Of a stretch of 64,000 nt of DNA, positions 19,268-59,684 are shown in pieces; within the stretch, counting starts at the first letter, position 1, and the number at the start of each line of letters is the position of its first letter. The position numbers and the translations under genes were made by a program. This DNA is from a virus: positions 64,001-128,000 of the IMG/VR virus record IMGVR_UViG_3300037205_000062; one strand, written 5' to 3'. The notes under the pieces are model-generated. The model was not told the origin of the DNA, did no database searches, and worked only from the letters and a program-made list of their open reading frames with translations.

Positions 19268-19296
19268 ATAATATCACATCATTAGTTTACTGTCAA
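19268..19296 (-). promoter_or_regulatory. Sigma70-type promoter for methylase and dnaE C-half
   Basis: TTGACA-17-TATTAT. Confidence 0.7.
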
Positions 19297-31433: not shown

Positions 31434-32486
31434 TTAAGGATATAATTTGAAAACGTCAGGTCTTACTGGAATTTTTCCACTTTCAAGTTCTAGGTCAAAT
31501 TTACACATAAGTTTAATATGATCTTTAAATGGCATACGATTTGGACGCCATCCAAGTTCCTTTTGAGCCTTTGTTGAATCAGCAATAAGGCGCACAACTT
31601 CATTAGGACGTTTTAATGAATCATCAAATTTAACATATTTTTTCCAATCAAGATTAAAATAATTAAATGCCTCATTTACAAATTCCTCTCCCCAATGAGT
31701 AACTCCATTTCCTATAACAAAATTATCTGGTTTTTCTCTTTGTAATAGGGTCCACATCATTTCGCAACCAAAATCACTAAAATGTTCATCTCTAGCCCAC
31801 TCTAAATGTCCTAATTTTAATTCGTGTTCTTTACCCAAAGCAATTTTAGCGGCTGTATTAGTAATTTTTCTTGATACAAAGTCTTTGGAACGATAAGTAT
31901 TAGAATGATTAAATAAAATACCAAAACAACAATACATACCGCTATCTAATGAATCTCTATAAAAATTTATCCATCTTGCACCCAATGCTTTACCTATAGC
32001 ATAAGGAGAACGAGGATTCCAAACGAAATCTTCATTAAACATACCACTATCAATTCCTCCTACTAACTCACTTGTAGCGGCAAAATAAGTTCTAGTTTTT
32101 GGACTATAATTTTTTAAACATTCTAAAAAGTAATAAACACTTTGACCATTAACAATAATTGGAAGTTCTTTATTCTTAAATGATTCTCCGACGTGACTAT
32201 TAGCGGCTAATAAATATAATTCATCAATTCTACTATGTCTTTTAATAACCGATTTAATACATTCATTCACGCTATTTTGACAAGAAATATCGCATACTTC
32301 TAAATATAATTCAGAAAAGGGGTATTTAATTAAATCATCTTGAAATAATTCTTTAATTTTTTGTTCATCCCAAAAAGAATTTCTTCTATATGTTAAAATA
32401 ACTTTATAGTTTTTGCTCAATAGAAAGTGAGATAAAGTCTTCGCGTCCATGCCATTGGCTCCAGTAATTAAAGCGATATTATTCAT
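31434..32486 (-). CDS. gmd: GDP-mannose 4,6-dehydratase
   Basis: ALITGANGMD, LAANSHV, TSEL, PRSPYAIGK, GILFNH, FVSRKI, RPNEV. Confidence 0.88.
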   Translation of the reverse strand: MNNIALITGANGMDAKTLSHFLLSKNYKVILTYRRNSFWDEQKIKELFQDDLIKYPFSELYLEVCDISCQNSVNECIKSVIKRHSRIDELYLLAANSHVGESFKNKELPIIVNGQSVYYFLECLKNYSPKTRTYFAATSELVGGIDSGMFNEDFVWNPRSPYAIGKALGARWINFYRDSLDSGMYCCFGILFNHSNTYRSKDFVSRKITNTAAKIALGKEHELKLGHLEWARDEHFSDFGCEMMWTLLQREKPDNFVIGNGVTHWGEEFVNEAFNYFNLDWKKYVKFDDSLKRPNEVVRLIADSTKAQKELGWRPNRMPFKDHIKLMCKFDLELESGKIPVRPDVFKLYP

Positions 32487-32516: not shown

Positions 32517-32945
32517 TTATACATAATTATAACAAAAATCACTACATATTCCAGTACATTCACTTATATTAGTATTATATAGCTCTGGTAAAACTGCAAT
32601 ACTATCTTTAATAACTTTGTTAGATGGAAAACTCCAAATATAACTTTTACTTGTTAAAGTTACTTTGTCATTTTCGTGCCAAAAACAGTGTATTTTATTA
32701 TTTTTTATCATTTTTTGAAGTGCTTGTATATTTTTAGCATGACACCACAATTTATTATGTTCTAAAAATTTTTCTTCTATTGAATAATTAGGAAAATCAT
32801 GTCCCAAGTAATATTTGTTATTTATATACCATATGTCAATTTCACATTCTAATCCTAAATATAATACTTTTAAAATCTGTAATGGAAAATTTTCCATTTT
32901 AGGATTTGGTCCATATAAATTACCTCTATGGCTTATTAGTATCAT
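32517..32945 (-). CDS. Small GDPD/PLC-like phosphodiesterase
   Basis: ISHRGN...EN...EIDIW...LGHD...HAKN...GICSD. Confidence 0.7.
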   Translation of the reverse strand: MILISHRGNLYGPNPKMENFPLQILKVLYLGLECEIDIWYINNKYYLGHDFPNYSIEEKFLEHNKLWCHAKNIQALQKMIKNNKIHCFWHENDKVTLTSKSYIWSFPSNKVIKDSIAVLPELYNTNISECTGICSDFCYNYV

Positions 32946-33517
32946 ATTTTAATAAAAACTGTATCGCTATTATCTTGACTATATTTTTGATAATTATTTT
33001 CTTTCATCCAATTCAATATTTCAGTAATAAATGGATTTATATAATTAGTTCCATGAGTTTCAACACATACAATTTTAGGACGACTTATCATATGTTTTAA
33101 TGTGAACCATTCTGAACCTTCAGTATCTATTGCAATTATATCAATATTATTGTCATCAAAATTATCAATAGTACATGCTTGTACTTCTATTAAATTATCT
33201 TGACTTCTTGAATAATTTGGTACCATTTTATCAGCAGTATTATATGGAACATCTTTAATACTTGTAGCATCAGTATAAAACCCTATTTTATCATTAGTAT
33301 TAGCTACAGCTAAATTATGAATTGTAAGATTTGATAATCCAGAATACCATTCTACTAACATTTTATAATATTTAGGATTAGGCTCAAACATTTGTATTTT
33401 AGGGCAGGAAAAGAAAAATTCTTTCACATGAGAATTCCAAGGTTCTGCTACTCCAACTTCAATAACGTGTTTAGGAGTAAATTTTATATTATTACAAATT
33501 TCAGATAAGTTAATCAT
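32942..33517 (-). CDS. FkbM-family methyltransferase
   Basis: IEVG, FEPNP, IDTEGSE. Confidence 0.8.
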   Translation of the reverse strand: MINLSEICNNIKFTPKHVIEVGVAEPWNSHVKEFFFSCPKIQMFEPNPKYYKMLVEWYSGLSNLTIHNLAVANTNDKIGFYTDATSIKDVPYNTADKMVPNYSRSQDNLIEVQACTIDNFDDNNIDIIAIDTEGSEWFTLKHMISRPKIVCVETHGTNYINPFITEILNWMKENNYQKYSQDNSDTVFIKI

Positions 33518-34719
33518 ATTAATTTACCCCATTTTTCAATAGCTGACTCGTATTCTTTATCATAATTTTTATTAATTGCTTGAGCCATTGCTTTTACTCC
33601 AGCTGATGTCCCCATAGGATGCGATGTAATAGCTCCTCCTACATTTGCCATCCAATCACAATGACCAAGAATATTTGTAATATAATCTATTAAACCTGGG
33701 TGCATTCCGCAACTTAATGCTGGAACACTACCAATTTCATTCAAATTTTTAATAATCGTTTTAAGTTCTTGAGTATCGTTATCCATATAACCACCAATCA
33801 TACCAACATGTAAAGTATCACAACCACTTAAAGCAGCTAATTGAAATAAAACAGAAGGTTCTATATGATACCTATGATCTGAACAATTAAGAATTTTATC
33901 TCCACTTTTTTGAAAATGCATTAAAAGTGGTAAATTCATTTCTCTTATAGATTTATAAATTCCCATACCGCAATGAAAATTGACATGGATACCGTTTCCA
34001 CCTAATTCAGAGACTTTTTTAGAATAATTTAATATTTTATGAGCATCTGCTTGAAGTGAAGCACAATAAAAAACTTTAGCATTTGTATTTCTGATATAAT
34101 TAGCTACTAAAGGTATTCTCTTTTCAATTGGACAAAATGCTTGATTAGATAAAATTTCATCTTCTTTAATAAAATTACAACCATTATCAATAAATTGTTT
34201 GACTAAATCTAAATGTTTTTCTGGAGAAAGTCCAACTTTAGGTTTCACAATACCACCAAATAAAACTTTATCTTTTGCTACATTACAAAATTTTCTCATA
34301 CCATCTATACCAAAATATGGACGTTTTAATTCTAATAACATAGATGGAGTAAATATGACCTGTTTAACTACGCATTTTGTAATTACATCAATATCACATT
34401 GGCCACCCATAATTTGAACAAGAAGTGAAGATATTCCGTCTTCTCTAAAGTTAATATTTTTTTCTGGAAACGCTATAAAAACATTACCTTTTTTAAGTTC
34501 GCTTAATTTATCAGGGTCTTCTAATATTAAACAAGAATGATCCTTAAATAATTCATCAGTTTCAAATTCAGAACGATTATGTGGATTGCCTACTGATTGA
34601 CCAATAGCTAAATTCCAAGCAGCATCTTTTAATGTAGTTTTACTTTCTAAATAATACCAAACTACATAATAATTTTTAAGAACATTTAGATTTACATTTT
34701 GATAGAATATGTTTATCAT
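33514..34719 (-). CDS. RuBisCO-like protein (form IV RLP)
   Basis: GGIVKPKVGLS, GCNFIKEDEIL, LSCGMHPG, VGGAITSHPMG..AGVKA. Confidence 0.92.
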   Translation of the reverse strand: MINIFYQNVNLNVLKNYYVVWYYLESKTTLKDAAWNLAIGQSVGNPHNRSEFETDELFKDHSCLILEDPDKLSELKKGNVFIAFPEKNINFREDGISSLLVQIMGGQCDIDVITKCVVKQVIFTPSMLLELKRPYFGIDGMRKFCNVAKDKVLFGGIVKPKVGLSPEKHLDLVKQFIDNGCNFIKEDEILSNQAFCPIEKRIPLVANYIRNTNAKVFYCASLQADAHKILNYSKKVSELGGNGIHVNFHCGMGIYKSIREMNLPLLMHFQKSGDKILNCSDHRYHIEPSVLFQLAALSGCDTLHVGMIGGYMDNDTQELKTIIKNLNEIGSVPALSCGMHPGLIDYITNILGHCDWMANVGGAITSHPMGTSAGVKAMAQAINKNYDKEYESAIEKWGKLI

Positions 34720-35036
34720 ACTTCATATTTGTCATTTTTAATACTAGGAGTCTTAATAACTATAAGTTCGCAATCTTTCAAAAATATAGGGTCAGCTATA
34801 TCTAAAGGTTTTAAAATAAACACGTCACCAGAATTTAGAGTCTGATTTTGTATTATCATTTTTCCCTTTATTAAATAATTAACCTCTGTAGCTATTTTAT
34901 GATAGTGTTTTGGCCAAATTTCACCTTTTTTATGTTTCTTAAAGCAAACTTCAAAATCATTAGAATGAAATGCGGTTTTTTTAAAAGAACCACAAAACCA
35001 ACCACCCTTCCATTTTTTTTGTCTAAAAATTTTCAT
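34716..35036 (-). CDS. Cupin-domain protein
   Basis: GWFCG, HYHKIATEVN...G.M...GDVF. Confidence 0.8.
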   Translation of the reverse strand: MKIFRQKKWKGGWFCGSFKKTAFHSNDFEVCFKKHKKGEIWPKHYHKIATEVNYLIKGKMIIQNQTLNSGDVFILKPLDIADPIFLKDCELIVIKTPSIKNDKYEV

Positions 35037-35788
35037 TATAGATTTCTAAGTTTTTTGTAATATTCATAATCAATTGGTGTTCCAATAGGATAATGCATGT
35101 TAAATGAAAATGGCAATACTTTCATACCCCTTTGGATCATATAATTATAAGATGGCGCTACATAATATTCTCCATTTACTGTATCTTCGTTTCTTTTCAT
35201 TTGATTAAATGATTCAATAAAATATAACCCTTTTTTCCACCAATGAAAACCATTTGTAGCAATATTACTGATAACTCGTTTTTCTTTAATATCTATTATT
35301 TCATTATTATCGCTTAATTTAATATAACTATTTTTTGGGCTACAAGAATGAAAAGTGCCTAATACTCCATCAGCATTATTAGTTTCGCAAAAATGTTCAA
35401 AAATATCATAATTCCAATCTTCTATAATTTGATCACAATTTGTTATTATAAGGGGAGATTCAATATCTGTTTTTATAGCACCAATTAATGCTGAATCTGC
35501 TGGTCCTTGAGGAAGGTAATCTATAGGTATTATTTGAAAAAAATCTCTTGGTAATTGTTTATTAATTACTTTGAAAATGTCATTTTCATTTAATTGTTTA
35601 ATATTAACGATAAAGGTAAAATAGAACGACTTATTAAACCCCATTTGCTTGTCAAATAAATTTTTTATAACGCATTCAATCATTGAATATTTTCCTAATG
35701 AAAGAAGGGGTTTGGGTAATGTATAACCACAATCGGAAAATCTTTTCCCAATTCCAGCCATAGGTATTACTATATTAATTTTATTCAT
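35036..35788 (-). CDS. Sugar-phosphate nucleotidyltransferase
   Basis: IVIPMAGIGKRF...PKPL, NCDQ, EK, GEYYVAP, IGTP; start reassigned to 35788. Confidence 0.85.
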   Translation of the reverse strand: MNKINIVIPMAGIGKRFSDCGYTLPKPLLSLGKYSMIECVIKNLFDKQMGFNKSFYFTFIVNIKQLNENDIFKVINKQLPRDFFQIIPIDYLPQGPADSALIGAIKTDIESPLIITNCDQIIEDWNYDIFEHFCETNNADGVLGTFHSCSPKNSYIKLSDNNEIIDIKEKRVISNIATNGFHWWKKGLYFIESFNQMKRNEDTVNGEYYVAPSYNYMIQRGMKVLPFSFNMHYPIGTPIDYEYYKKLRNL

Positions 35789-36407
35789 AAATTTTTGGTC
35801 GAACATCTGAACCAGCTCCATTTTTATAAAAATTAGATAATTGTAAATTCTTTTTAATCCAATATATATCAAATTCTTTAGTTAAATGATTAAAGAAATT
35901 AAAATTTTCAAAAGTTTCTTTGGATTTTTCTATATAATTATTAGTCAGTCTAGTTTCTGGTGGAGGATAATGATTATCTTTTGATTTATAATTCCAAAAT
36001 ATTTTTGAATTTTCTAAATTTCCAAAAGAAAACCAATCGCATACTTGACGGTAATTCATATACATACCATAATGTATAAAAGATAAAGTTTTGTTATTTT
36101 TACTAATTATTTCTAATAATTTATCAATATTATCAAATACCATATCACTTCGTGTTTTAAAAATAAATTGCGTATTAGATTGTTTAATCCCATTAAAAGA
36201 AGAGGTACATTGTAAATTTATATTAGAAGTCCCAACGTTATTAGGTTTAGACGTAATAATTAATGGTATTTCTTTACTAATCTGATTTAAATTTTCATCT
36301 GGTTCGTTATCCCATGTTGACCAAACATATTGTTGATTACTAGAGAGATTTTTTAAAACTTCTTTATAATAATTTGTTGGTCCTTGAATAACTATTGTTG
36401 TATCCAT
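35781..36407 (-). CDS. WavE-like polysaccharide biosynthesis protein
   Basis: IVIQGP, VWSTW, N.NLQ..S..GI, KTRSD. Confidence 0.65.
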   Translation of the reverse strand: MDTTIVIQGPTNYYKEVLKNLSSNQQYVWSTWDNEPDENLNQISKEIPLIITSKPNNVGTSNINLQCTSSFNGIKQSNTQFIFKTRSDMVFDNIDKLLEIISKNNKTLSFIHYGMYMNYRQVCDWFSFGNLENSKIFWNYKSKDNHYPPPETRLTNNYIEKSKETFENFNFFNHLTKEFDIYWIKKNLQLSNFYKNGAGSDVRPKIYE

Positions 36408-36408
36408 T

Positions 36409-37017
36409 TTATTTACCTAATAATAACTGACAACATGTTGGATGATAATAAATAGGTTTATATCCGCAAGCTAATAAAAAGGGTATACTATATTCGCTTT
36501 TACCTCCTTTAAATTCTGAATTTTTAATATCATCTAATAAAATTAATGAATTTTCATGTAAATTAAAAATGATATTTTGAATTTCTTTTAATTGATGTCT
36601 ACATGCTTCTTCTATTATATTTTTATTATAATCAGAAGTATCCATACTATCCAAATATAAAAAATCTACAGGTTTTTCAAAATTACGAAGATACGCTACG
36701 GAATCTTGCTCTATGTATTCTATATGATTAGAAAATTGTTTTGTAGAGTTTTTACAATCATTTATACTTTCAGAGTTAATATCAACTGTAATTAATTTTG
36801 AATTAGTTAATTCGCACCATTTTCCAAAAACTATTGTACTACCCCCTCCACCATTAATATCATTAATATTTTTACCCCTAGTTGTACCAGTTTCTAACAT
36901 TATAATAGGTTTATCTCCAAATCTTTTATAAATATTATCGAATAATTTAAGAAAGGATTCTGCTCTGCTTTGATATGGTAAATTTCTTATATAATTTTTA
37001 ATTTCATCTAATTTCAT
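36409..37017 (-). CDS. Class I SAM methyltransferase (Methyltransf_24-like)
   Basis: LETGT, VDIN, DSV, DFLYLDS, LLDD. Confidence 0.8.
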   Translation of the reverse strand: MKLDEIKNYIRNLPYQSRAESFLKLFDNIYKRFGDKPIIMLETGTTRGKNINDINGGGGSTIVFGKWCELTNSKLITVDINSESINDCKNSTKQFSNHIEYIEQDSVAYLRNFEKPVDFLYLDSMDTSDYNKNIIEEACRHQLKEIQNIIFNLHENSLILLDDIKNSEFKGGKSEYSIPFLLACGYKPIYYHPTCCQLLLGK

Positions 37018-37018
37018 A

Positions 37019-37681
37019 TTAAAGTTTAATTTTTGATGCTAAATAGTTACTATGGTGAAAATGTTCTACTGGATATTCAGCATATCTTAATACATCTTTT
37101 TCAACATTATATATATATCTCCCCTGTAACAAATCATACATATTTCCTAAAGTTTTACCAGCTAAAGGATACCTTTCTCCATATTCAAATTGTATAAATT
37201 CTATTTTATCTAAATAATCTTCTGAACTTTTAATTACTTCATATTCAAGACCTTCTACATCAATTTTAATAAAATCAATATTAGATATATTTCTTGAATC
37301 CATATACTTCTTAAGAGTAGTTAAAAATATAACGTCTTTTTGGTCTTTTCCATCGTGATTATAAATGGATTCTCCATTATAATAATAAGTAAAATATCCT
37401 TCTTTATCATTAATCCCAAAGAAATTTAAATGGATATTTGGATTATTAATTAAGTCATCGTTATTAATAAGTTCCTTAAAAGCAAATTTATTAGGTTCAA
37501 ATAGATGAACATCTTGGTCTTTGAAAATTTTACAAAAGTCAAAATCTTTTTGTGCTCCTACTGAAAAAATAGTTTTAACTCCAAATTTTTCTTGCATTAA
37601 TCTAGCTAGTTTATCTTCACCCTCTGACAATTCTTGAGCTACATGTAATCTAGGTCTTTGGTCGTAATAAATGATGTTCAT
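37019..37681 (-). CDS. FkbM-family methyltransferase
   Basis: SVGA, FEPN, IKIDVEGLE, IQFEYG. Confidence 0.85.
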   Translation of the reverse strand: MNIIYYDQRPRLHVAQELSEGEDKLARLMQEKFGVKTIFSVGAQKDFDFCKIFKDQDVHLFEPNKFAFKELINNDDLINNPNIHLNFFGINDKEGYFTYYYNGESIYNHDGKDQKDVIFLTTLKKYMDSRNISNIDFIKIDVEGLEYEVIKSSEDYLDKIEFIQFEYGERYPLAGKTLGNMYDLLQGRYIYNVEKDVLRYAEYPVEHFHHSNYLASKIKL

Positions 37682-37714
37682 AATTAATATATTATACTTT
37701 ATTGTATATGTTTA

Positions 37715-38419
37715 CTATAAATAGTCTATTTTAATTAATGTATCTTGCGGTTCATTAGGAAAATCTAATCCATTTATAGGATACTTAATTTTCAACGGAG
37801 AATGTCCTACTGTGTAGGTTCTATTTAAAAAAGTTATTTCTGGAGTATCAGGGAATTCAAAGCCATTATAATCTAAAGAAAATCTTGAAGTATTACCATG
37901 GACATGAATAATATCAAATATTTTTCTTAATTCTTTCAAAATGCTTAAAAATTCATTTAATCGAGTATTAATATTATGAAATTCTACAATCATACATCTT
38001 AATTCTAAAAGTTGAATTTGTTTACTATGATAAAAAAAATCATACTCCGCTCCCTCTGCATCAATTTTAAGAATAGTGTTTGATAAAAGTTTATTATCTT
38101 TGTTCTGTTTTATATGATTAAAAAAAGTATTTGTACAACGCCCTTGCTGACCAGATAATCCTTCTTGATGAAATTGAAAAGTATTTATTTGATTAGATAA
38201 TTGAATAGTATGGTCATAACCATGTATTTTAACATGTGGATTTAATCTCTTTAAATGTCGTTCAAAAGAAATTTCATTATCTATTCCATAACTATAACAT
38301 CTTTTACATTGATTAATAGTTTCTAGGTTAATGATATAACCACCATCACGCTTATGTCCTACGCGTATTAATTTATCTTTAGTTTTTACGGGTTGTGTTA
38401 GATTTTGTAAGATATTCAT
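37715..38419 (-). CDS. FkbM/Methyltransf_22-like methyltransferase
   Basis: RVG..DGGY, SYGI..SFE, LKIDAEGAE, EFH, HGN. Confidence 0.8.
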   Translation of the reverse strand: MNILQNLTQPVKTKDKLIRVGHKRDGGYIINLETINQCKRCYSYGIDNEISFERHLKRLNPHVKIHGYDHTIQLSNQINTFQFHQEGLSGQQGRCTNTFFNHIKQNKDNKLLSNTILKIDAEGAEYDFFYHSKQIQLLELRCMIVEFHNINTRLNEFLSILKELRKIFDIIHVHGNTSRFSLDYNGFEFPDTPEITFLNRTYTVGHSPLKIKYPINGLDFPNEPQDTLIKIDYL

Positions 38420-38422
38420 AAT

Positions 38423-39232
38423 TTAAATATTATCCAAACTATTAATAAAAAACTGAGGATATTTTTCTTTAGTAATACTGGTAGGTAAATATGGGTTAGT
38501 GATAAAAGTTACAGGATGGTCGGTATTATGGCGTATATTAAATTGCCCTTCTTTTAGACGTTTTTTTAATACTTCCCTTAAAACTTCTTCATTAGGAATT
38601 TCGGATTTATTTAACGTTTCTCCTGCATTTAAAAACTTATGTCTAATAGATTCTACACCACCCATGTAACTTAAATGCCAACCACCCATAGTTAATCTAG
38701 GTAATTGGTCTTTCCTAGTTCTAAAAAATTGTGGATTAAATTGATTTAATGTACTTTTTTTTACAGCTATTGTACCAGGAAAAGTATGAAATAATGAAAC
38801 TATATTCATCCAATAAACATGGTGAACGTGTGAAAAAGCTAAAGCATTTCCATGTTTAAAATGATTACTTAATAAGTACTCAAACCATTGATGGTGAGGA
38901 ATTTCATCCAAATCAGAAATTAATACAATATCATTTTCATATACATTATTTAATCCCTTAACTATAGAATTGCGTAAGTAATTATCAATAGTAAAAACGT
39001 CACCATTTAAAGGGGGACAATCCGTTACAACTACATGAATTATTTTATCAAGATAAGTAGAAAAACGATTTTTATTATCACTAAAATATAGTGGTTTTGG
39101 AACTGAACAATGATTGATTGTAGATTCTACAATAACGAACTTGTCGATATACGGAGAAAGGTATTCTAATCTAGCTTCTAATAAATCTAATTCATTAAAA
39201 AATTGAATACAATCGTAAATTTTAGGTTTCAT
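38423..39232 (-). CDS. Glycosyltransferase family 17
   Basis: IYDC..FFNELDLLE.R, VES, SDLDEIP, GGWHLSY. Confidence 0.88.
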   Translation of the reverse strand: MKPKIYDCIQFFNELDLLEARLEYLSPYIDKFVIVESTINHCSVPKPLYFSDNKNRFSTYLDKIIHVVVTDCPPLNGDVFTIDNYLRNSIVKGLNNVYENDIVLISDLDEIPHHQWFEYLLSNHFKHGNALAFSHVHHVYWMNIVSLFHTFPGTIAVKKSTLNQFNPQFFRTRKDQLPRLTMGGWHLSYMGGVESIRHKFLNAGETLNKSEIPNEEVLREVLKKRLKEGQFNIRHNTDHPVTFITNPYLPTSITKEKYPQFFINSLDNI

Positions 39233-39650
39233 AAATATTTTTCCTTATAATATCGTTATATATATAATCTATCGCTTCTTGAAAAGAAAAACATATATAA
39301 TAACAATGGTTATACAGCCATATATCAATATCCAAACTTCGAGGTACAACCATAATAACCTTCTTATTATTAAATGAACCATAAGCGGCTACCATAGCTG
39401 ACCTACAAGACCATTTAGAAAAATTAATTAAAATATAATCAGATGCTAAAATATCTTGTTTATCTTTATTAACGACTTCATTATATTTAGAATTTGATTT
39501 AATAATTGAATATTGTGAAGGTAATGAATCAAGTATGCTGGTTTTTAGATGTTTCTTTACCCATTCTCTCCAATCAATAGGATATGTATTTACACAACTT
39601 TTCTTAGGACCGAAAAGATAGGTTTTTATGGTAATTTTATTTTTTTTCAC
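39222..39650 (-). CDS. Degenerate nucleoside 2-deoxyribosyltransferase-like protein
   Basis: YL.GP, DWRE, D..DI..SD; catalytic GT..E motif is altered (RSAMV). Confidence 0.5.
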   Translation of the reverse strand: MKKNKITIKTYLFGPKKSCVNTYPIDWREWVKKHLKTSILDSLPSQYSIIKSNSKYNEVVNKDKQDILASDYILINFSKWSCRSAMVAAYGSFNNKKVIMVVPRSLDIDIWLYNHCYYICFSFQEAIDYIYNDIIRKNIYET

Positions 39651-39655
39651 TATAT

Positions 39656-40606
39656 TTATAATAGTATAGATTTAGGTAAAACTGTATAATTTCTTCTAAT
39701 AGCCTGATTATCAAAATGGGTTAATTGTGGTACTAAAATATAAGCTTTATTAGATAATACCTTTTTAACAAAATTAGCCATATATATACAATCATAATTT
39801 AAAGGAAAGCATGTTTCAGGAAATGGCATCCATCTTAATTGATGACTTGGAAAAGGTTGGAATGGCGCTGATACTTGGCGACTTAAACAAAGGGTAGGGA
39901 TTCCATAGGAATATCCAATCACACGTAACCCACTATCTATTGAAAACATTAATTTTGCGGCTGAAATAGCCAAACAAGCCTCTTTTAATCCAACTGCTAA
40001 AATTTCAACGTTTGGATAATTTTCAAATTTAGAATAAATATTTCTTATATCATTTGTACAAATAAGTTTACATTTTATAAATTTGCTAACTTCTTCTACT
40101 ATACGTTCTATATACCAACGTTCTAAACCGTGGTCATTTTTTGTATTAGACATAAGATGAAATGCCACATATTCCTCTTTTGTATCTAATTTTTGTAAAT
40201 CTGGCTTGGGAAAAAATCTATAATATCTTAACCAATCAAAATCATAATCTACCCATTTTAAAGAGTCTATATGACCATCATACCAAATATCATGAGATTC
40301 AATTTTTGCGCGCCATTCATCTGGAACATTTTCATAAACACCCATACTCTTTTCTTCTCCAAATTGAGAAGAAATATAACATTCTTTATATTTTTTATGA
40401 GGTATAACAATAACTTCTTTATAAAAAGAAGGATATAAAATTTCAATTAATTCTTTTTGAAAAGTTTTCCCTTCGCTATCGACATAAAGATAAATGTCAT
40501 AATCTGGATATTTTTCTTTAATAGCTGGTATAAAACGATTAAATAATAAAATATCACCCGCCCCACCTTCAGCTCTAATTCCTATAGTTTTATTTATACT
40601 TTCCAT
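39656..40606 (-). CDS. Glycosyltransferase family 9-like
   Basis: GGAGDILL...IKEKYPD; IDSGL...GIPTL. Confidence 0.75.
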   Translation of the reverse strand: MESINKTIGIRAEGGAGDILLFNRFIPAIKEKYPDYDIYLYVDSEGKTFQKELIEILYPSFYKEVIVIPHKKYKECYISSQFGEEKSMGVYENVPDEWRAKIESHDIWYDGHIDSLKWVDYDFDWLRYYRFFPKPDLQKLDTKEEYVAFHLMSNTKNDHGLERWYIERIVEEVSKFIKCKLICTNDIRNIYSKFENYPNVEILAVGLKEACLAISAAKLMFSIDSGLRVIGYSYGIPTLCLSRQVSAPFQPFPSHQLRWMPFPETCFPLNYDCIYMANFVKKVLSNKAYILVPQLTHFDNQAIRRNYTVLPKSILL

Positions 40607-40609
40607 TTT

Positions 40610-41851
40610 TTATATAATTTCTACAATAGGTAATGGGAAAATAAACTTAGTTCCATTTTTTATTGTTTCCTTTTCTCTTTCTAATATTTCTTTTTTAAAA
40701 TGATATGGACCAACTAAATAATAGTCTGGTTTCATTTTTCTGCTTTCTTCTTCTGAGATTAGTTTAATACCACTAATAGTTTTAGCACCAAATTTTTCTG
40801 GACTTCTTTCTGCTGCATATTCAATTAGTTCTGGTCCTATTTTACAATAACCTAAAATAGTATTAAGTTTAGTAGACGAACCATAAATATGAATTGTTTT
40901 TCCTGATTTTTTAATGTTATTTATTAATGATACTAGAGTAAATTTTTGCTCTAATACTGACATTCTAAATTTCTTATAGGTATCTTCATCATCTAGCGAC
41001 GCACAAAATTCTTCCATTCTTATATTTGATAAGTTTTTCTCAAATTCATTATTGTTATAATCAAAACACGATTTATGAGATACAAATACCATTAAACTAC
41101 CACCATTTGTATCAGTCTTTTGGGCATTAAAAATTTTTAACCCAATAGAATTTAACATTATCTCTAATGGGGCTAAATGATAATGAATAATATGTTCATT
41201 TACTATACTATCATACGCCAAATTATTTAACATAGAAGGCCAATATGCCACTTCAAATATCCATATTCCTTTATCTGTTAATATCTTTTTTATTTCTTCC
41301 GCAAATTTTGTTGGATTTTCAACATCATAATAGCACGCAATAGATGTAATAATATCAAACTGTTTTCCACATAATTTATTAGTTGGAAACAAATCATTTA
41401 TTACAATTATATCTTCATCTGTTTGTTTTGCTGATATGTCAGACGGATCAACTCCATATTTAATAAAGTTTTTTGGATAATTTCTTAATAATGTATTGTC
41501 GTTAGAAGCTATATCTAATACTGATCCAAGTTCTAATTGAGTTAACTTTAACGCATTATTTACAATAGATTTAAGATGTTCTCTCATTGTAAAACTTATA
41601 CCAGATTGATACCAATAATTTGTATAAAGAATTCTTGGCGGAATAGTATGTTTCGTTTGGATTAATCCACACGCATCTTCATATTTAGATGTATCGCATC
41701 TAACTACTAAATTTGGAGTTTTTCTGAGTGGTGGATTTGGAATTCCATCCTTTATAAAGGAACCTTGAAAATACTGTTCTCCTAAATCAATTACATCAGT
41801 TAAATTAGGATTTCCACAAATTCTACATGTTTGTTTATATTTTATATTCAC
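40610..41851 (-). CDS. NDP-sugar C-methyltransferase (Zn-binding, Methyltransf_13/14 type)
   Basis: CRICG..DLGEQ, LDIASND, YDSIVNEH, NGGSL, YGSSTK.NT. Confidence 0.88.
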   Translation of the reverse strand: MNIKYKQTCRICGNPNLTDVIDLGEQYFQGSFIKDGIPNPPLRKTPNLVVRCDTSKYEDACGLIQTKHTIPPRILYTNYWYQSGISFTMREHLKSIVNNALKLTQLELGSVLDIASNDNTLLRNYPKNFIKYGVDPSDISAKQTDEDIIVINDLFPTNKLCGKQFDIITSIACYYDVENPTKFAEEIKKILTDKGIWIFEVAYWPSMLNNLAYDSIVNEHIIHYHLAPLEIMLNSIGLKIFNAQKTDTNGGSLMVFVSHKSCFDYNNNEFEKNLSNIRMEEFCASLDDEDTYKKFRMSVLEQKFTLVSLINNIKKSGKTIHIYGSSTKLNTILGYCKIGPELIEYAAERSPEKFGAKTISGIKLISEEESRKMKPDYYLVGPYHFKKEILEREKETIKNGTKFIFPLPIVEII

Positions 41852-42186
41852 GTCTTAAATTCGGAAATTGAATTATGAAAGAATTTTTTTTGTAAAACTT
41901 GTTTAGCCCTATATCTTAATATATTATAATTATCTAATTCCTTCGCTGTAATTAAATTAAATTTAGCTTTATCCACTCCATTAAAAATTAATAAATTAGT
42001 TTCTTTTAAAGAAAGATATTCTTGAGATTTTAAAATAGAAGAAAATTTTACGTGCCCAATTTGTTTAGACAAGAACAGGTAACATTCTTTATAATGTTTT
42101 TCCTGTTCCTGAAACTTATCTTTTTTAATTTCTAATATAGATAAATAATCAAAAGCATATGATTCACTAACTAATAGATTAATCAT
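41848..42186 (-). CDS. Hypothetical protein (DUF6165-like)
   Basis: D.LSILEIK...N..R...K pattern. Confidence 0.5.
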   Translation of the reverse strand: MINLLVSESYAFDYLSILEIKKDKFQEQEKHYKECYLFLSKQIGHVKFSSILKSQEYLSLKETNLLIFNGVDKAKFNLITAKELDNYNILRYRAKQVLQKKFFHNSISEFKT

Positions 42187-42198
42187 ATATTTTAATAA

Positions 42199-42381
42199 TT
42201 ACTTATTAAATATAAATTTTACCTGTTCGGACTTGAAATCAATAAACTTTTGAGTTTTCTCGGACCAAACAATCACCTTAATATCTTCTGTTTTTGCGGC
42301 GATTCCTTGTTTTTGAAACAGTTCTGCAACAGTTCCCAAAACTTCAGAAGCATCCAATTCAGCATTTATTTGTATTTTCAT
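42199..42381 (-). CDS. Hypothetical protein
   Basis: 60 aa, downstream of a TTGACA-17-TATAAT promoter (42388-42416). Confidence 0.6.
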   Translation of the reverse strand: MKIQINAELDASEVLGTVAELFQKQGIAAKTEDIKVIVWSEKTQKFIDFKSEQVKFIFNK

Positions 42382-42418
42382 AATAGTATTATATATTAGT
42401 TTTATTTATATGTCAATA

Positions 42419-42775
42419 TTAAATTTCTATTACTTCACCACTAGTTTTAGATGGATGAAGTTTCTTTGTCTTTTTCTCGTAGTCGTCAATTACTTTTTGT
42501 TTTACTGGGTCTTGGCCAGATACTTTTGCCCTTTTATCGCTTAATTCAGAACTTATATCCCACATGTCGCCTATAGAATAGTTTTTATTTTTAGTGTGAT
42601 TGACAAAATCATTAGCGGAATTAGGATTAATTTTAGTATCTATAGAAGCTGTAGGTTTAGTAAAAATACGAAGCCATTTTGTTCCATTTTCGGAATATTC
42701 ATGAAGATCATTCATACCTTGAAATATTTCTTTAATTTCTTCTGTTTTTGGATGCTGGAAAAGATAAAGTGGCAT
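42419..42775 (-). CDS. FmdB-like protein (zinc-less ribbon)
   Basis: MPLYLFQHPKT.E..E.FQ.M N-terminus. Confidence 0.55.
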   Translation of the reverse strand: MPLYLFQHPKTEEIKEIFQGMNDLHEYSENGTKWLRIFTKPTASIDTKINPNSANDFVNHTKNKNYSIGDMWDISSELSDKRAKVSGQDPVKQKVIDDYEKKTKKLHPSKTSGEVIEI

Positions 42776-42779
42776 AATG

Positions 42780-43016
42780 TTATTTCGGATAAGAATTAGT
42801 GAGTTTATATTTTTCTTTTTGTCTTTCTAATTCTTTAGTAAAATCATCATGATTATCTGGGTGTTTTTGTTTGGCGAAAACTGCCGCTAATTGTCTTTGT
42901 AATTTCCACATAATTTGCTCTTCTGTTCCATCAATAAGAAAATGACCAATATCAACTGGATTTTTTCTAATATCAAAATCATCTTCGCATAAAAAAAGAC
43001 AAGTAGTTAATTTCAT
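42780..43016 (-). CDS. Hypothetical protein
   Basis: 78-aa ORF in operon. Confidence 0.55.
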   Translation of the reverse strand: MKLTTCLFLCEDDFDIRKNPVDIGHFLIDGTEEQIMWKLQRQLAAVFAKQKHPDNHDDFTKELERQKEKYKLTNSYPK

Positions 43017-43699
43017 ATATTATAATATTTTTCTATTTCACTTTTACTAAAAATAAAGAAAATTTTATTATCTTCTTCTTGAACTGATATAATATGAGAA
43101 TTAATGAATCCTTTATTTAACATTTCAGATTTGAAAGTGGGGATATGTTCTGGTTCAAGAACCGTTTCGCCGCAAATGCTTTGTACTTTACTTAGGTTAG
43201 CTTCTTTTAGGATGTCTCTTTCTTGGTATCCTATATTAATTTTTAATATATCAATACTAGTTTCTTTACCGCAATATACGTCTAAAATTTTTGAAAGAGT
43301 ATCACTTGGGCAAAAATATCCAAGTGTTTCGTTGGATGGGGCAACTGGTTGAAGATTTGAATAATTAATAAATGATTTTTCTGATTTTGGATGTCCTATT
43401 TTTAATCCAGAATTATCTTTAGAAATAGATATAAGGTGAGGAATAGCAAATGGATTTTCAGATAAATTTTTTATTAACATCTTAAAATTATCTAAATATG
43501 GTTCAAAAGAATAAACTCTTTTTGCGCCCAAAGCTAATGAAGTAATAGTAAAATAACCACAATGCGCCCCAATATCTACGACTATAGGACGTTCTTCTTC
43601 CTTTTTAAATCCTCTAACACGATACGAATTAGTATTAAATATCTTATCTAACCAATATTGATCGTCTGAAAAACTACGAATATGTATTACGGGAGTCAT
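43013..43699 (-). CDS. FkbM-family methyltransferase
   Basis: VVDIGAHCGYF, SFEP..NF..L..N. Confidence 0.85.
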   Translation of the reverse strand: MTPVIHIRSFSDDQYWLDKIFNTNSYRVRGFKKEEERPIVVDIGAHCGYFTITSLALGAKRVYSFEPYLDNFKMLIKNLSENPFAIPHLISISKDNSGLKIGHPKSEKSFINYSNLQPVAPSNETLGYFCPSDTLSKILDVYCGKETSIDILKINIGYQERDILKEANLSKVQSICGETVLEPEHIPTFKSEMLNKGFINSHIISVQEEDNKIFFIFSKSEIEKYYNI

Positions 43700-43710
43700 A
43701 AATAAATATA

Positions 43711-44811
43711 TTATCTAATAGAGGTTTCGATTATTCTATTAACAAAATCTTCTTTATTAAATTTAGTTTGAAGTTCTAATCCAAATTTATTAACTCGATC
43801 TTTTTCTACTCTAGTAATTGCTTTACGGCAAGCAAATATAAACTCTTCTTCATTCCAGTCAAAAATATTACCTTGATTAAACATATCACCTTTACGGAAA
43901 AATATGTTATCAACAGAATCTATTTTCCCACTAGGATTAATTAGAACAGAGTTATTACTATTAGCCCAACCTTTATAAGCATGAGCATCTAAAATAACAG
44001 CATGTTTTCCAATAGCTACTGATTGGAATTCTGGAAGTCCCCACCCCTCACCTCCAGAAACTCCCAAAACAATATCTCCACTATTAAGAAAATCATTATA
44101 AATATAATTTTCTTTAAAATTAGGAAAGAAGTTTACATTAAATGGTTTATCCCCTCCTAAAATTTGTTTAATAAATTCGTGATTTTGTTCGGGAGACAAA
44201 AAATGATTAAAAATAGCGCATTGTAAATGATAACGTCTATCGTTGCCAAAGGCTTTAATCCAAGATTGAATTACTTTTGCGTGATGCTTTCTTTTTTCTA
44301 ATTTTCCGCAAAGATTAAATACAATTCTACCATCTTGATGATATTGTTTATTTAATTTTGTAAAATTATAAGAGTCAAAAGCAAGAGGAACATAACTACA
44401 ATTAACTCCAAATAATTTAAAGACAGTACAAGCGTATTCACTACTAAGAATTAAATTATTATTTTTAGCTATATTAAGTTCAATTTTAGTTGGACTATCT
44501 AGTTCATAAAAACTTAATAATGATTGTTTATAACCATAAGATTCAAGACTTTGATTAAGATGCCATAATTTGAACACTGGAATATCTTTAGTATAGTTTT
44601 CTAATGTTTTAACTAATTTTGATTGAAGCCAAGCTTTAAAATCTTCTTCTATTTTTTGAGAAGAAAGGTCTATATTAGCAATAGCAAAAAGATATAAATC
44701 AATGTCACTTGTTCCATTCTTTTCTCTTTCAAAGAGAGTTTTTAAAATAAGAGTGGATACTTGGCCTAGTGAAACGCTATTAATTGGAAGATGTAAGGCT
44801 AATTTATTCAT
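43711..44811 (-). CDS. GT4 glycosyltransferase
   Basis: GKLEKRKH, SGGEGWGLPEFQSVAIGK. Confidence 0.85.
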   Translation of the reverse strand: MNKLALHLPINSVSLGQVSTLILKTLFEREKNGTSDIDLYLFAIANIDLSSQKIEEDFKAWLQSKLVKTLENYTKDIPVFKLWHLNQSLESYGYKQSLLSFYELDSPTKIELNIAKNNNLILSSEYACTVFKLFGVNCSYVPLAFDSYNFTKLNKQYHQDGRIVFNLCGKLEKRKHHAKVIQSWIKAFGNDRRYHLQCAIFNHFLSPEQNHEFIKQILGGDKPFNVNFFPNFKENYIYNDFLNSGDIVLGVSGGEGWGLPEFQSVAIGKHAVILDAHAYKGWANSNNSVLINPSGKIDSVDNIFFRKGDMFNQGNIFDWNEEEFIFACRKAITRVEKDRVNKFGLELQTKFNKEDFVNRIIETSIR

Positions 44812-44871
44812 TATTATGACTGTAAATAAAGAATATTCCATCTTTACTTACAGTTTTGACTATTCTAAATA

Positions 44872-45221: not shown

Positions 45222-45842
45222 TCAAACTATATCTGAAATATTTTTACTATTGATTTTACTTTTCACTAATTTAACGCCCTTGTCATGTAAATTTACTACA
45301 GTTTGCGTACTTAAATTCATTTTTTTAGCTACTTTACTCCAAATCATTTTTTTATCTCCGCAATATCTATATTTAAAAATATTACATATTCTATCATCTT
45401 TTAATTGATTTAGTATATTAAATATATAATGATAATTTTCTATATAATTTTTATTATTATTAGAGTAGTCAGTGGTTGCTTGTTTTTCTTCTATACGAGT
45501 TTTAATTTCGTCGCTATCCATTGGAAGAACTAATTTATCAGAATTCATTGTATTCAGACATAAATATCTAGTACAATTCCCTATCCAAGTTGATAATTTA
45601 GCATTCTTTTTAGACTTAAAAGAAAGAATACAACGGTAAATAACGTAATTTTTTTCATCAAAAATATCTTTAATATTAATACCACTAAGTAAGAGTGCTA
45701 AATTATACTTTTGACATATTTTATAAAAAATATTTTCATATCTTTTACAAATCTCATTAAATGAATCATTGTCACCGTATTTCTTAACTGAATTAATTAA
45801 TTGTAAATCAGTTTTTTGTTCTGGTAGTTTATTGTTTTTCAT
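45222..45842 (-). CDS. Phage sigma70-family factor (regions 2 and 4)
   Basis: KLSTWIGN..RY.CLN; RY...W.KVAKKMNLS.QTV.NLH.KG. Confidence 0.75.
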   Translation of the reverse strand: MKNNKLPEQKTDLQLINSVKKYGDNDSFNEICKRYENIFYKICQKYNLALLLSGINIKDIFDEKNYVIYRCILSFKSKKNAKLSTWIGNCTRYLCLNTMNSDKLVLPMDSDEIKTRIEEKQATTDYSNNNKNYIENYHYIFNILNQLKDDRICNIFKYRYCGDKKMIWSKVAKKMNLSTQTVVNLHDKGVKLVKSKINSKNISDIV

Positions 45843-46239
45843 TACAAAGTTTTTTAATAACTTCTATAGGTAAATCTTTAGGTAAATCATCTAATTCTTT
45901 TGGAAGTAGCCCTATTTCAATTCTTTTCTTTGTATCAATTAAACAGAGTAAATTCCAAGCCGCCGCAGTTAAATGAGGTTCATCATTTTGACCCCTCAAA
46001 GCTTTATTTAGATGACGTTTAGCTGAATCCGCATATCTTGAAAGAGGTTGGCCTTTTTCCCAATTTCTTTCGCCGTACTTAATCGCTCCACCTTCAAAAT
46101 GCTTTGCTATCTCTTCTTCCGCAAACATTGGTAGTAAATCAAATCTTCCTTTACCATCTCTAGTGTCTCTTCTCGAACCTGTATTAAATTCTTGTCTCTT
46201 ACCAGAATCTTTAATTACAGGAGTTATTTTAGTAGTCAT
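45829..46239 (-). CDS. dATP/dGTP diphosphohydrolase (DUF5664 family)
   Basis: F.TG..RD...GK.RFDLLP, GA.KYG.RNWEKG, S..RH, HL.AA.WN. Confidence 0.88.
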   Translation of the reverse strand: MTTKITPVIKDSGKRQEFNTGSRRDTRDGKGRFDLLPMFAEEEIAKHFEGGAIKYGERNWEKGQPLSRYADSAKRHLNKALRGQNDEPHLTAAAWNLLCLIDTKKRIEIGLLPKELDDLPKDLPIEVIKKLCNEKQ

Positions 46240-59565: not shown

Positions 59566-59684
59566 AATCATAAAGATAGTTATCCCTCTTATTTATAAGA
59601 TTACTCGAAAACGAGAAACAAAATAGGTGATGCTTGAGTGGGATTAAAATGGATAATATAGATTAATTTCTGTATTGTTCACTA

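What the first reader, a model, noticed from the sequence alone, without database searches (positions are those of the whole stretch)
32517..36407. Phage-encoded RuBisCO-like protein in a sugar-nucleotide operon
Seen: tightly coupled genes WavE-like, nucleotidyltransferase, cupin, RLP, FkbM methylase, GDPD-like, then gmd. The RLP keeps the KPK lysines and the carbamylation motif as KEDE but has no loop-6 lysine (GMIGGY). Known: form IV RLPs do not fix CO2; characterised ones act in methionine salvage or on branched sugar acids such as apionate. Inference: an undescribed biosynthetic pathway that makes an activated unusual (branched or polyol-phosphate) sugar for virion, DNA or host-surface glycosylation.
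Basis: partly seen in the sequence, partly recalled or inferred. Interest (0 to 1): 0.78.

Follow-up and report, generated by a model that had tools for sequence, protein, structure and literature searches.

The report
Phage RuBisCO-like enzyme in sugar-activation cassette
A large low-GC phage carries a real RuBisCO relative that cannot fix CO2 and that travels, here and in dozens of other phage, SAR11, CPR and archaeal glycan loci, with (or fused to) a sugar-phosphate nucleotidyltransferase, a small cupin and a miniature phosphodiesterase, which points to an untested glycan-building job for the RuBisCO fold.

Summary
Window 33514-34719 (-) encodes a 401-aa RuBisCO large-subunit homologue (Pfam 2e-33). 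It keeps K175/K177 and the K201-D203-E204 Mg/carbamate site. It has lost N123, E60, H294 and the loop-6 lysine, so it can probably enolise a keto-sugar phosphate but cannot carboxylate.

It sits in an overlapping-codon operon: WavE-like, nucleotidyltransferase, cupin, RLP, FkbM methyltransferase, a 142-aa stripped GDPD-fold protein, then a GMD-family dehydratase.

The RLP belongs to the 'Form IV-like' phage clade already reported by Jaffe et al. 2019, with function left open. It does not group with MtnW-like or OiaX sequences.

The linkage is conserved. In 38 other non-redundant loci the nucleotidyltransferase is nearby in 35, the mini-GDPD in 28 and the cupin in 22, in at least 8 gene orders. 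RLP-NTPtr, NTPtr-cupin and RLP-NTPtr-cupin fusions exist.

New here: the nucleotidyltransferase + mini-GDPD pair also occurs without the RLP in cultured cyanophages. There it is partnered with HAD, RibB (fused) or class II aldolase enzymes, so the RLP looks like one of several swappable ketose-phosphate 'feeder' enzymes.

The substrate, the product and the glycan target are not identified. This scan has found the same cassette before on other DNA.

The parts
33514..34719 (-). RuBisCO-like protein (401 aa, P0001), 'Form IV-like' clade; Mg/carbamate site kept, carboxylation residues lost
   Evidence: Pfam PF00016 at 2e-33. PDB RuBisCO/RLP hits down to 4e-29 with residue alignment. Twenty active-site positions are invariant over 120 homologues. 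Clade support.
35036..35788 (-). Sugar/polyol-phosphate nucleotidyltransferase (250 aa from the ATG at 35788; the listed ORF's TTG start at 35872 is probably spurious)
   Evidence: PF00483. The family profile matches PDB 4evw, an NDP-sugar pyrophosphorylase, at 3.6e-28. GxGxRF, K26, NCDQ and EK motifs are invariant. Adjacent to the RLP in 35 of 38 loci. Fused to the RLP in P0122, P0270 and P0271.
34716..35036 (-). Small metal-type cupin (106 aa) with GX5HXHX4EX6G motif (H44, H46, E51; also invariant H35, K33, K95)
   Evidence: Alignment A3. AF2 model pLDDT 87.7. VIA-align Z 11.6 to the T. kodakarensis small phosphomannose isomerase 7zvy, among many tied cupins. Fused to the NTPtr in L018 and in P0271.
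32517..32945 (-). Miniature GDPD-fold (PLC-like phosphodiesterase) protein, 142 aa, with most outer helices of the barrel missing
   Evidence: Invariant H6 R7, E18 N19, E35 D37, H49 D50, H69 K71. Profile hit to P. furiosus GDPD at E 0.006 over these motifs. AF2 pLDDT 95.9. The top 22 VIA-align hits are GDPD/PLD chains, Z 7-10, over all 142 residues. No Pfam family.
35781..36407 (-). WavE-like protein (208 aa), candidate glycosyltransferase, overlaps the NTPtr start by 8 nt
   Evidence: PF07507 at E 5e-4, below the cut-off. Clear PF07507 proteins flank the module in L019 and L020.
32942..33517 (-). FkbM-family methyltransferase inserted between the RLP and the mini-GDPD (not part of the conserved core elsewhere)
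   Evidence: PF05050 at 1.2e-15. In most other loci the mini-GDPD follows the RLP directly.
31434..32486 (-). GMD-family NDP-sugar 4,6-dehydratase (350 aa), downstream after a 30-nt spacer
   Evidence: PF16363 at 1.9e-65, but TIGR01472 gives 206 bits against a cut-off of 415. A relative lies within 6 kb of the RLP in 13 of 39 loci.
36409..44841 (-). Rest of the glycan island: Methyltransf_24, three or four FkbM methyltransferases, a GT17-like protein, a TylC3-type C-methyltransferase, a phage-type glycosyltransferase
   Evidence: Pfam and PHROG hits.

Best explanation
The RLP, the nucleotidyltransferase and the cupin form one biosynthetic unit. The mini-GDPD is a frequent fourth member. Together they turn a central ketose phosphate into a rearranged sugar phosphate and activate it as an NDP-sugar for glycan synthesis.

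Proposed steps (inferred unless marked shown):
1. The RLP uses its retained carbamylated-Lys/Mg site and K175 to enolise a 2-keto sugar (bis)phosphate, most likely a pentulose or other ketose phosphate. It releases an epimerised or carbonyl-shifted product. It cannot add CO2.
2. The metal cupin does an aldose-ketose or enol-keto step, as the cupin domain does in type II PMI-GMP enzymes.
3. The nucleotidyltransferase joins the product to an NMP. A conserved acidic residue at the base-recognition position is a recalled lead that favours G or C over U or T.
4. The mini-GDPD cuts or makes a phosphodiester on the nucleotidyltransferase's substrate or product. Candidates are a cyclic or distal phosphate, or transfer of the phospho-sugar.
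5. The GMD-like dehydratase, the C- and O-methyltransferases and the glycosyltransferases of the island tailor and transfer the sugar. The most probable acceptor is a host envelope glycan during infection.

Shown: homology, active-site pattern, conserved linkage, fusions, and glycan-locus context in cells. Inferred: every chemical step, the substrate, the nucleotide and the acceptor.
For: - The RuBisCO fold and the residue pattern are invariant over 120 homologues of 53-100% identity. Window versus L002 differs at 150 synonymous codons against 76 amino-acid changes.
- Linkage: the NTPtr lies within 7 kb in 35 of 38 non-redundant loci, the mini-GDPD in 28, the cupin in 22, and all four in 20, in at least 8 gene orders.
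- Rosetta-stone fusions: NTPtr-cupin (L018), RLP-NTPtr (P0122), RLP-NTPtr-cupin (P0270 and P0271).
- Cellular copies sit in surface-glycan loci. A 372-kb bacterial contig has WavE, RmlC, GT2 and Bac_transf next to the module. A complete Pelagibacter chromosome has it between heptose-pathway genes, GT9 and a KdsB-like gene.
- The NTPtr profile matches NDP-sugar pyrophosphorylases.
- The cupin is nearest to a small phosphomannose isomerase, among other cupins.
- The mini-GDPD fold is supported.
- The window's island carries a 4,6-dehydratase, a C-methyltransferase, O-methyltransferases and glycosyltransferases.
Against: - No substrate or product is known, and no kinase or mutase is present in the cassette.
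- The NTPtr + mini-GDPD pair also works with other partners and without the RLP. The RLP is therefore not essential to that pair, and its step could be optional tailoring.
- The cupin is missing in the SAR11 subclade.
- One locus with full flanks (L025) has the RLP alone by BLASTP.
- The GMD-like neighbour is present in only 13 of 39 loci.
- The cupin fold matches are tied over many functions.
Confidence: 0.6

Rival explanations
1. This is polyol/ketol-phosphate activation rather than a glycosyl donor. The RLP reshapes a pentulose phosphate, and the nucleotidyltransferase activates it through its primary (non-anomeric) phosphate, as in CDP-ribitol, CDP-glycerol or CDP-xylulose/arabinitol synthesis. 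The group is then put on a glycan as a phosphodiester. The mini-GDPD is the transferase or editing hydrolase for this glycerophosphodiester-like head group.
For: - A GDPD-fold partner fits substrates of the type R-O-P-O-CH2-CH(OH)-.
- Close relatives of this NTPtr are fused to RibB. RibB acts on ribulose-5-P and yields a ketol phosphate with no anomeric carbon. One search listed 120 protein clusters, nearly all full-length fusions and a few shorter pieces.
- One RibB-fused group nests inside the RLP-linked NTPtr clade.
- The NTPtr is small (about 240 aa) and also touches the IspD, LicC and inositol-phosphate cytidylyltransferase profiles.
- Precedent for nucleotidylyl transfer to a ketopentose 5-phosphate (S. 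pneumoniae CDP-arabinitol route) is recalled from memory and was not checked here.
Against: - The RibB cassette also holds a TAL/FSA aldolase, a small HAD and a 320-aa protein, so the NTPtr substrate there may be a longer sugar 1-phosphate.
- The best NTPtr matches are sugar-1-phosphate enzymes.
- The GMD-like, RmlC-like and TylC3-type neighbours act on NDP-hexoses.
Confidence: 0.22
2. The order is reversed. The nucleotidyltransferase acts first, and the RLP (with the cupin) isomerises an NDP-linked ketose, with the nucleotide sitting where RuBP's C1 phosphate would be.
For: - Fusions do not fix the order of steps.
- The P1-side residues are changed in a fixed way: T65N, W66P, K334Y and G380C.
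Against: No RuBisCO-family enzyme is known to take a nucleotide-linked substrate (established knowledge, not tested here). The backbone P1 glycines G381, G403 and G404 are kept.
Confidence: 0.08
3. This is a salvage role as in methionine or 5-deoxy-sugar salvage. The RLP would be the enolase or isomerase, the cupin an acireductone-dioxygenase-like enzyme, and the mini-GDPD the phosphoesterase.
For: RLP + phosphoesterase + metal cupin recalls the MtnW + MtnX + MtnD trio (established pathway knowledge). The cupin has an HxH..E metal motif.
Against: - MtnW models score 85-116 bits against cut-offs of 409-514.
- The clade is separate from the MtnW-nearest group.
- The MtnW base position (N123 equivalent) is Gly.
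- No MtnA, MtnB or MtnK homologue is nearby.
- The constant partner is a nucleotidyltransferase, in glycan loci.
Confidence: 0.03
4. It is a carbon-fixing or AMP-pathway RuBisCO used as an auxiliary metabolic gene.
For: Only the family membership and the retained K175, K177, K201, D203 and E204.
Against: K334Y, N123G, E60G, H294Q and T65N are invariant. It scores far below the form III, II and I cut-offs. No PRK, R15P isomerase or AMP phosphorylase is in the locus.
Confidence: 0.01

Closest known systems
'Form IV-like' RuBisCO-like proteins of phages and Beckwithbacteria (Jaffe, Castelle, Dupont & Banfield 2019, Mol Biol Evol; PMC6389311)
   Same: Phage-borne (large myovirus-type genomes) and divergent from all named RLP clades. 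Key residues are only partly kept. The window's clade also contains a Beckwithbacteria sequence, L035.
   Different: In the passages of that paper read here, function was left open and no gene neighbourhood was described. The cassette, the fusions and the cellular glycan-locus context come from this scan. Their sequences were not on hand for a direct comparison.
Type II phosphomannose isomerase / GDP-mannose pyrophosphorylase (NTP_transferase + cupin in one chain)
   Same: The same two folds in the same order occur in the fused form L018. A small archaeal PMI is among the best cupin matches. A GMD-family dehydratase lies downstream.
   Different: The cupin does not hit the MannoseP_isomer model. 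The NTPtr is only distantly related to ManC. An RLP and a GDPD-fold protein are added.
Phage UDP-D-arabinofuranose route (Ru5P isomerase, AfhE kinase/uridylyltransferase, AfhF HAD phosphatase; PMC13326640)
   Same: A phage-encoded route that diverts a pentose-phosphate-pathway ketose phosphate into an NDP-sugar by way of a small nucleotidyltransferase.
   Different: That route uses a SIS isomerase, an anomeric kinase and a HAD phosphatase, and it feeds DNA glycosylation. Here there is no kinase and no SIS domain. Instead there are an RLP, a cupin and a GDPD-fold protein, and the cellular homologous loci are envelope-glycan loci.
Characterised RLPs: MtnW (DK-MTP-1-P enolase), R. rubrum MTRu-1-P isomerase, OiaX (3-oxo-isoapionate-4-P decarboxylase)
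   Same: Same fold and Mg/carbamate core. Probably the same first chemical step, enolisation next to a phosphate-bearing carbon.
   Different: All of these are catabolic or salvage enzymes. The window protein misses their equivalog cut-offs by 300-600 bits and forms its own clade.
Glycerophosphodiester phosphodiesterases (GDPD, PF03009)
   Same: Catalytic motif HR..EN..ExD..HD and barrel topology.
   Different: It is 142 aa instead of about 240. Most outer helices are missing, there is no Pfam hit, and the third metal ligand Glu appears replaced by His69 (read by eye).

Membership tests
RuBisCO large-subunit superfamily (PF00016) | Catalytic-domain profile match above the curated cut-off | tested here: met
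   116.4 bits against a cut-off of 30.1; 99 PDB RuBisCO/RLP sequences match at E <= 1e-3.
RuBisCO large-subunit superfamily (PF00016) | Carbamylatable Lys plus Asp/Glu metal ligands (K201, D203, E204) and K175/K177 | tested here: met
   K185, D187, E188, K159 and K161 are invariant in 120 homologues.
Carboxylating RuBisCO (forms I-III) | Loop-6 K334, N123, E60, T65, H294, R295 | tested here: not met
   Y311, G106, G40, N45, Q270 and K271 occupy these positions. Form III, II and I models score 95-140 bits against cut-offs of 438-497.
MtnW / YkrW DK-MTP-1-P enolase | Equivalog model score, and clade membership | tested here: not met
   115.8 bits against 409 and 85.3 bits against 513.6. The clade is separate from the MtnW-nearest group at SH-aLRT 100 and 97. 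No bona fide MtnW reference sequence was in the tree.
OiaX 3-oxo-isoapionate-4-P decarboxylase | Equivalog model score; groups with an annotated OiaX | tested here: not met
   110.7 bits against a cut-off of 700. The annotated Rhizobium OiaX falls in another starred group.
'Form IV-like' phage RLP clade (Jaffe 2019) | Phage-borne, groups with Beckwithbacteria RLPs, outside the named form IV clades | tested here: met
   The window clade holds viral contigs and a Beckwithbacteria MAG sequence and excludes the other groups.
GDPD (PF03009), for the 142-aa protein | Profile match; catalytic His/Arg/Glu/Asp constellation; (beta/alpha)8 barrel | tested here: inconclusive
   No Pfam hit. The motifs are present and invariant. 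The profile matches a GDPD at E 0.006. The fold gives Z 8-10 to GDPDs over the full length, but the barrel is stripped.
Sugar-1-phosphate nucleotidyltransferases (PF00483) | GxGxR(L/F) NTP loop, catalytic Lys, EK motif, profile match | tested here: met
   27.6 bits against a cut-off of 21.2. Motifs are invariant. 4evw matches at 3.6e-28, and RmlA and HddC at about 1e-8 to 1e-9. Substrate class was not tested.
Type II PMI-GMP | NTP_transferase followed by a MannoseP_isomer cupin | tested here: not met
   The architecture is mimicked in L018, but there is no PF01050 match to the cupin.
GDP-mannose 4,6-dehydratase (TIGR01472), for 31434-32486 | Equivalog score | tested here: not met
   206 bits against a cut-off of 415. 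The Pfam family PF16363 is met.

The most novel reading that the evidence does not exclude
A conserved core of a small nucleotidyltransferase and a stripped GDPD-fold enzyme accepts interchangeable 'feeder' enzymes. All of these make metal-stabilised enediolates from ketose phosphates: the Form IV-like RLP (with a cupin), RibB (fused), or a class II aldolase/MtnB-like protein. HAD partners occur in other versions. This plug-in system would make a family of undescribed nucleotide-activated sugars or ketols for the surface glycans of marine and freshwater phages, SAR11, CPR bacteria and DPANN archaea. The RLP would then be the first RuBisCO-superfamily enzyme with an anabolic, glycan-building role.
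Probability: 0.35. Interest if true: 0.85.

Novelty: new variant of a known kind. Interest (0 to 1): 0.7.

Why it matters
Every characterised RuBisCO-superfamily enzyme either fixes CO2 or works in salvage or catabolism. A member wired into nucleotide-sugar synthesis would be a new functional class for one of the most studied protein folds.

The clade is large: more than 2,000 homologues at E <= 1e-3 and hundreds of clusters above 50% identity. It is found in uncultured large phages, and sporadically in SAR11 (2 of 201 species genomes searched), CPR bacteria and DPANN archaea.

Its product is probably a strain-variable surface sugar. That is the kind of structure that decides phage adsorption in the most abundant marine bacteria.

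The question is directly testable. The enzymes are small and soluble, a complete Pelagibacter genome carries the cassette, and cultured cyanophages carry the RLP-less core.

Tried and rejected
- tblastn of the RLP against 50,697 cultured-phage records found nothing. Megablast of 20 kb of the window also found nothing.
- The plasmid collection held only relatives below 30% identity (OiaX, form I and others). These were used as labelled tree references.
- Pfam Gp23 and Terminase_6N were not found in the record. The Gp23 control also rang nowhere. PHROG terminase and tail-fibre hits were used instead.
- An NCBIfam scan of ten distant RLP representatives named none of them above a cut-off, so most tree groups stay unlabelled.
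- Foldseek gave only weak E-values for the mini-GDPD. The VIA-align wide search was clearer.
- Literature searches for an RLP together with a nucleotidyltransferase, a cupin or a nucleotide sugar, and for 'Form IV-like' after 2019, found nothing relevant in the held library.
- DNA hypermodification reading: no PurZ was found, no ThyX, and the ThyA passes the thymidylate synthase equivalog cut-offs. There is therefore no positive sign of a modified-base pathway, but the record is only 79% complete.
- I considered the RLP + cupin as a replacement for a phosphomutase, through ketose-1-P to aldose-1-P isomerisation of a bisphosphate. It is attractive because no kinase or mutase is in the cassette and IMPase-like or HAD genes lie nearby in some loci. 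It cannot be tested here and is kept only as a sub-option.

Full report
WHAT IS THERE

The window is bases 64001-128000 of a 162.9-kb IMG/VR virus record, about 79% complete. GC content is 25-31% across the region.

The record encodes the following phage-type proteins:
- A terminase-like protein and collagen-type tail-fibre proteins outside the window.
- Inside the window, a split family-B DNA polymerase with an HNH insert, UvsX, DnaB, a primase, an RNR and seven tRNAs.

It is a large tailed phage. Pfam Gp23 and Terminase_6N were not found, so I do not call it T4-like.

From 36407 down to 31434 on the minus strand there are seven genes:
- WavE-like: weak, E 5e-4.
- NTP_transferase.
- A 106-aa cupin.
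- A 401-aa RuBisCO_large protein.
- An FkbM methyltransferase.
- A 142-aa protein with no Pfam family.
- After 30 nt, a GMD-family SDR. It scores 206 bits against the gmd equivalog cut-off of 415.

Start and stop codons overlap at five successive junctions: 8 nt, 1 nt, then three ATGA overlaps. The true nucleotidyltransferase start is the ATG at 35788, not the upstream TTG.

The operon lies in a 13-kb island that also holds O- and C-methyltransferases and glycosyltransferases.

THE RLP

Residue-level alignment to solved RuBisCOs gives, in spinach numbering:
- Kept: K175 and K177 (VKPK), K201/D203/E204 (KEDE), H327, S379, G381, G403, G404.
- Changed: E60G, T65N, W66P, N123G, T173I, H294Q, R295K, H298D, K334Y, G380C.

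All twenty positions are invariant or nearly so across the 120 best homologues, which are 53-100% identical. This is a functionally constrained signature, not decay. Window versus L002 shows 150 synonymous codon differences against 76 amino-acid changes.

The enolisation apparatus is retained. The residues that position CO2, stabilise the carboxylated intermediate and run hydration and cleavage are gone. That these residues are needed for carboxylation is established RuBisCO enzymology.

None of the NCBIfam equivalogs (form III, form II, MtnW, OiaX) is approached.

Two trees place the protein in its own clade:
- A FastTree of 120 sequences.
- An IQ-TREE (LG+C20, quick search) of 54 sequences.

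In the IQ-TREE the clade has 23 rows and SH-aLRT 100. It is separate from these three groups:
- The group holding an annotated OiaX.
- The group nearest to MtnW models.
- The group holding form I.

The clade includes viral contigs and sequences from Beckwithbacteria, Patescibacteria, Woesearchaeota, Saprospirales, Verrucomicrobiae and Pelagibacter.

This matches the 'Form IV-like' phage clade of Jaffe et al. 2019. That paper reported about 80 such phage proteins and left the function open. A phage RLP as such is therefore not new.

THE LINKAGE

I compared 38 non-redundant loci:
- 17 viral contigs.
- 23 loci from species-representative genomes.
- Extra contigs.

Homologue counts within 7 kb of the RLP:
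- Nucleotidyltransferase: 35 loci. Two of the three exceptions are truncated contigs.
- The 142-aa protein: 28 loci.
- Cupin: 22 loci, plus one fused form.
- All four genes: 20 loci.

Gene order is shuffled at least eight ways, which argues for selection on proximity rather than shared descent alone.

Three kinds of fusion exist:
- NTPtr-cupin in L018.
- RLP-NTPtr in P0122.
- RLP-NTPtr-cupin in P0270 and P0271, about 815 aa.

In cells the module sits in envelope-glycan loci:
- On a 372-kb bacterial contig: WavE, RmlC-like, IMPase-like, GT2 and Bac_transf.
- In a complete Pelagibacter chromosome: the ADP-heptose genes, GT9 and a KdsB-like gene.

It is sporadic in SAR11, found in 2 of 201 species genomes searched. 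That fits a strain-variable surface trait.

Several related phages keep the cassette next to the same UvsX-DnaB-primase block as in the window.

THE PARTNERS

The 142-aa protein:
- It has invariant H6-R7, E18-N19, E35-x-D37, H49-D50 and H69-x-K71.
- Its family profile aligns these motifs to the catalytic motifs of the P. furiosus GDPD (E 0.006).
- Its AF2 model (pLDDT 95.9) aligns over all 142 residues to 22 GDPD/PLD-type chains at Z 7-10.
- It is a GDPD barrel stripped of most outer helices. It has hundreds of mainly viral relatives and no Pfam family.

The cupin:
- It has a classic HxH..E metal motif.
- A small archaeal phosphomannose isomerase and KdgF are among its best matches, tied with many other cupins.

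The nucleotidyltransferase:
- It is closest to the uncharacterised PDB entry 4evw (3.6e-28).
- It is more distantly related to RmlA, HddC and ManC-type enzymes.

Cultured cyanophages have no RLP, yet they carry homologues of both the NTPtr (30-34% identity) and the mini-GDPD (32-40% identity) in glycan islands. Their partners differ:
- S-CAM9: a HAD-NTPtr fusion, a second HAD and the mini-GDPD.
- S-SM2: a tandem NTPtr, GT61, a class II aldolase/adducin-family protein, small HAD-like proteins, the mini-GDPD and a cupin.
- S-SKS1: an NTPtr-RibB fusion.

The NTPtr-RibB fusion is a large family. One search listed 120 clusters down to 38% identity, nearly all full-length fusions and a few shorter pieces. 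Its own fixed neighbours are a 320-aa protein, a small HAD and a TAL/FSA aldolase. Next to it in L061/L062 lies a HAD + NTPtr + mini-GDPD trio with no RLP.

On a tree of the nucleotidyltransferase domain, the RLP-linked, HAD-fused and RibB-fused forms interleave.

No RibB or class II aldolase occurs in any RLP locus held here.

RibB, MtnB/AraD-type class II aldolases and RLPs all work through metal-stabilised enediolates of ketose, mostly pentulose, phosphates. That is established enzymology.

My reading is that the NTPtr with the mini-GDPD is the conserved core, and the RLP (+cupin) is one plug-in feeder. The common starting material is probably a pentose-phosphate-pathway ketose phosphate. 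This is inference from a small sample.

MECHANISM AND ITS LIMITS

Best explanation (0.6): an RLP-driven enolisation and rearrangement, a cupin isomerisation, nucleotidyl activation, then tailoring and transfer to an envelope glycan.

Main rival (0.22): activation through a primary phosphate, CDP-ribitol-like, giving a phosphodiester-linked decoration. This would give the GDPD fold a natural role.

Weaker options: a reversed order of steps, salvage, and carboxylation.

Nothing here identifies the substrate, the nucleotide, the product or the acceptor.

For the phage, remodelling of host surface glycan during infection is favoured by the cellular contexts. Virion glycosylation is not excluded. 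DNA glycosylation has no positive support. The ThyA is an ordinary equivalog and there is no PurZ, but the record is incomplete.

The nearest characterised phage route is Ru5P to UDP-arabinofuranose via isomerase, kinase, HAD phosphatase and uridylyltransferase (PMC13326640). It uses different enzymes and feeds DNA.

EARLIER SCAN NOTES

The same cassette was reported before on other genomes, with the same reading (e1-874215, e1-5375527, e1-5375534). The RibB cassette was also reported (e1-5680065). I re-derived the linkage and the fusions independently. I add the RLP-less cyanophage versions and the interleaved NTPtr tree.

VERDICT

The protein is a new member of a published clade. Its apparent role in a nucleotide-sugar cassette is an undescribed variant of RLP function and was absent from the literature I could search.

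Noticed in passing
P0188 (from; not in the window): A 583-aa protein with an N-terminal TIR_2 domain fused to a full RuBisCO large subunit (N and catalytic domains). This is an odd architecture that might be a defence or signalling fusion.
   Followed up: no
P0160, P0190: IF-2B family (ribose-1,5-bisphosphate isomerase / MtnA-like) fused to a form III-type RuBisCO in one chain of 726-742 aa.
   Followed up: no
L058:5001-6428 (Synechococcus phage S-SKS1), L059-L062: A nucleotidyltransferase-RibB (DHBP synthase) fusion. One search listed 120 clusters, nearly all full-length fusions. Its fixed neighbours are a 320-aa protein, a small HAD and a TAL/FSA aldolase. It looks like a second undescribed phage sugar route. 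The scan has noted it before (e1-5680065).
   Followed up: partly
L057 (Synechococcus phage S-SM2) 4693-5004 and 6334-6663; L058 7377-7733: Genes annotated 'phosphoheptose isomerase' in cyanophage records. In Pfam, one tested copy gives only a weak HAD_PNKP hit and no SIS hit. All three resemble a 112-aa ORF beside the RLP locus of Pelagibacter. The annotation may be wrong.
   Followed up: partly
window 17464-18669 and 19293-21626 (-): The family-B DNA polymerase is split into two ORFs. The upstream part carries an HNH endonuclease segment (aa 561-775). This could be a homing-endonuclease or intein-like interruption.
   Followed up: no
window 45829-46239 (-): A 136-aa protein matches the N-terminal domain of dATP/dGTP diphosphohydrolase (PF18909, 2.5e-23). 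I recall this family from 2-aminoadenine (Z-base) phage gene sets. No PurZ (adenylosuccinate synthetase family) was found in the 79%-complete record.
   Followed up: partly
window 7906-12603 and 12624-17453 (+): Two adjacent giant ORFs (1565 and 1609 aa) with no Pfam match at all.
   Followed up: no
window 59073-63493: A cluster of seven tRNA genes (Gly x2, Arg, Leu, Pro, Ile, Lys) in a stretch with higher GC.
   Followed up: no
L025 (66-kb bacterial MAG contig): An RLP of the same clade (51% identity) with full 8-kb flanks, but no nucleotidyltransferase, cupin or mini-GDPD detectable by BLASTP. It is the only clear solitary case.
   Followed up: no
L020-L022 (marine viral contigs) 1406-3907: Next to the RLP module lies a second set: CTP_transf_like + Cupin_2 + PfkB kinase + epimerase. 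It resembles an ADP-heptose route with a cupin in place of the SIS isomerase.
   Followed up: no
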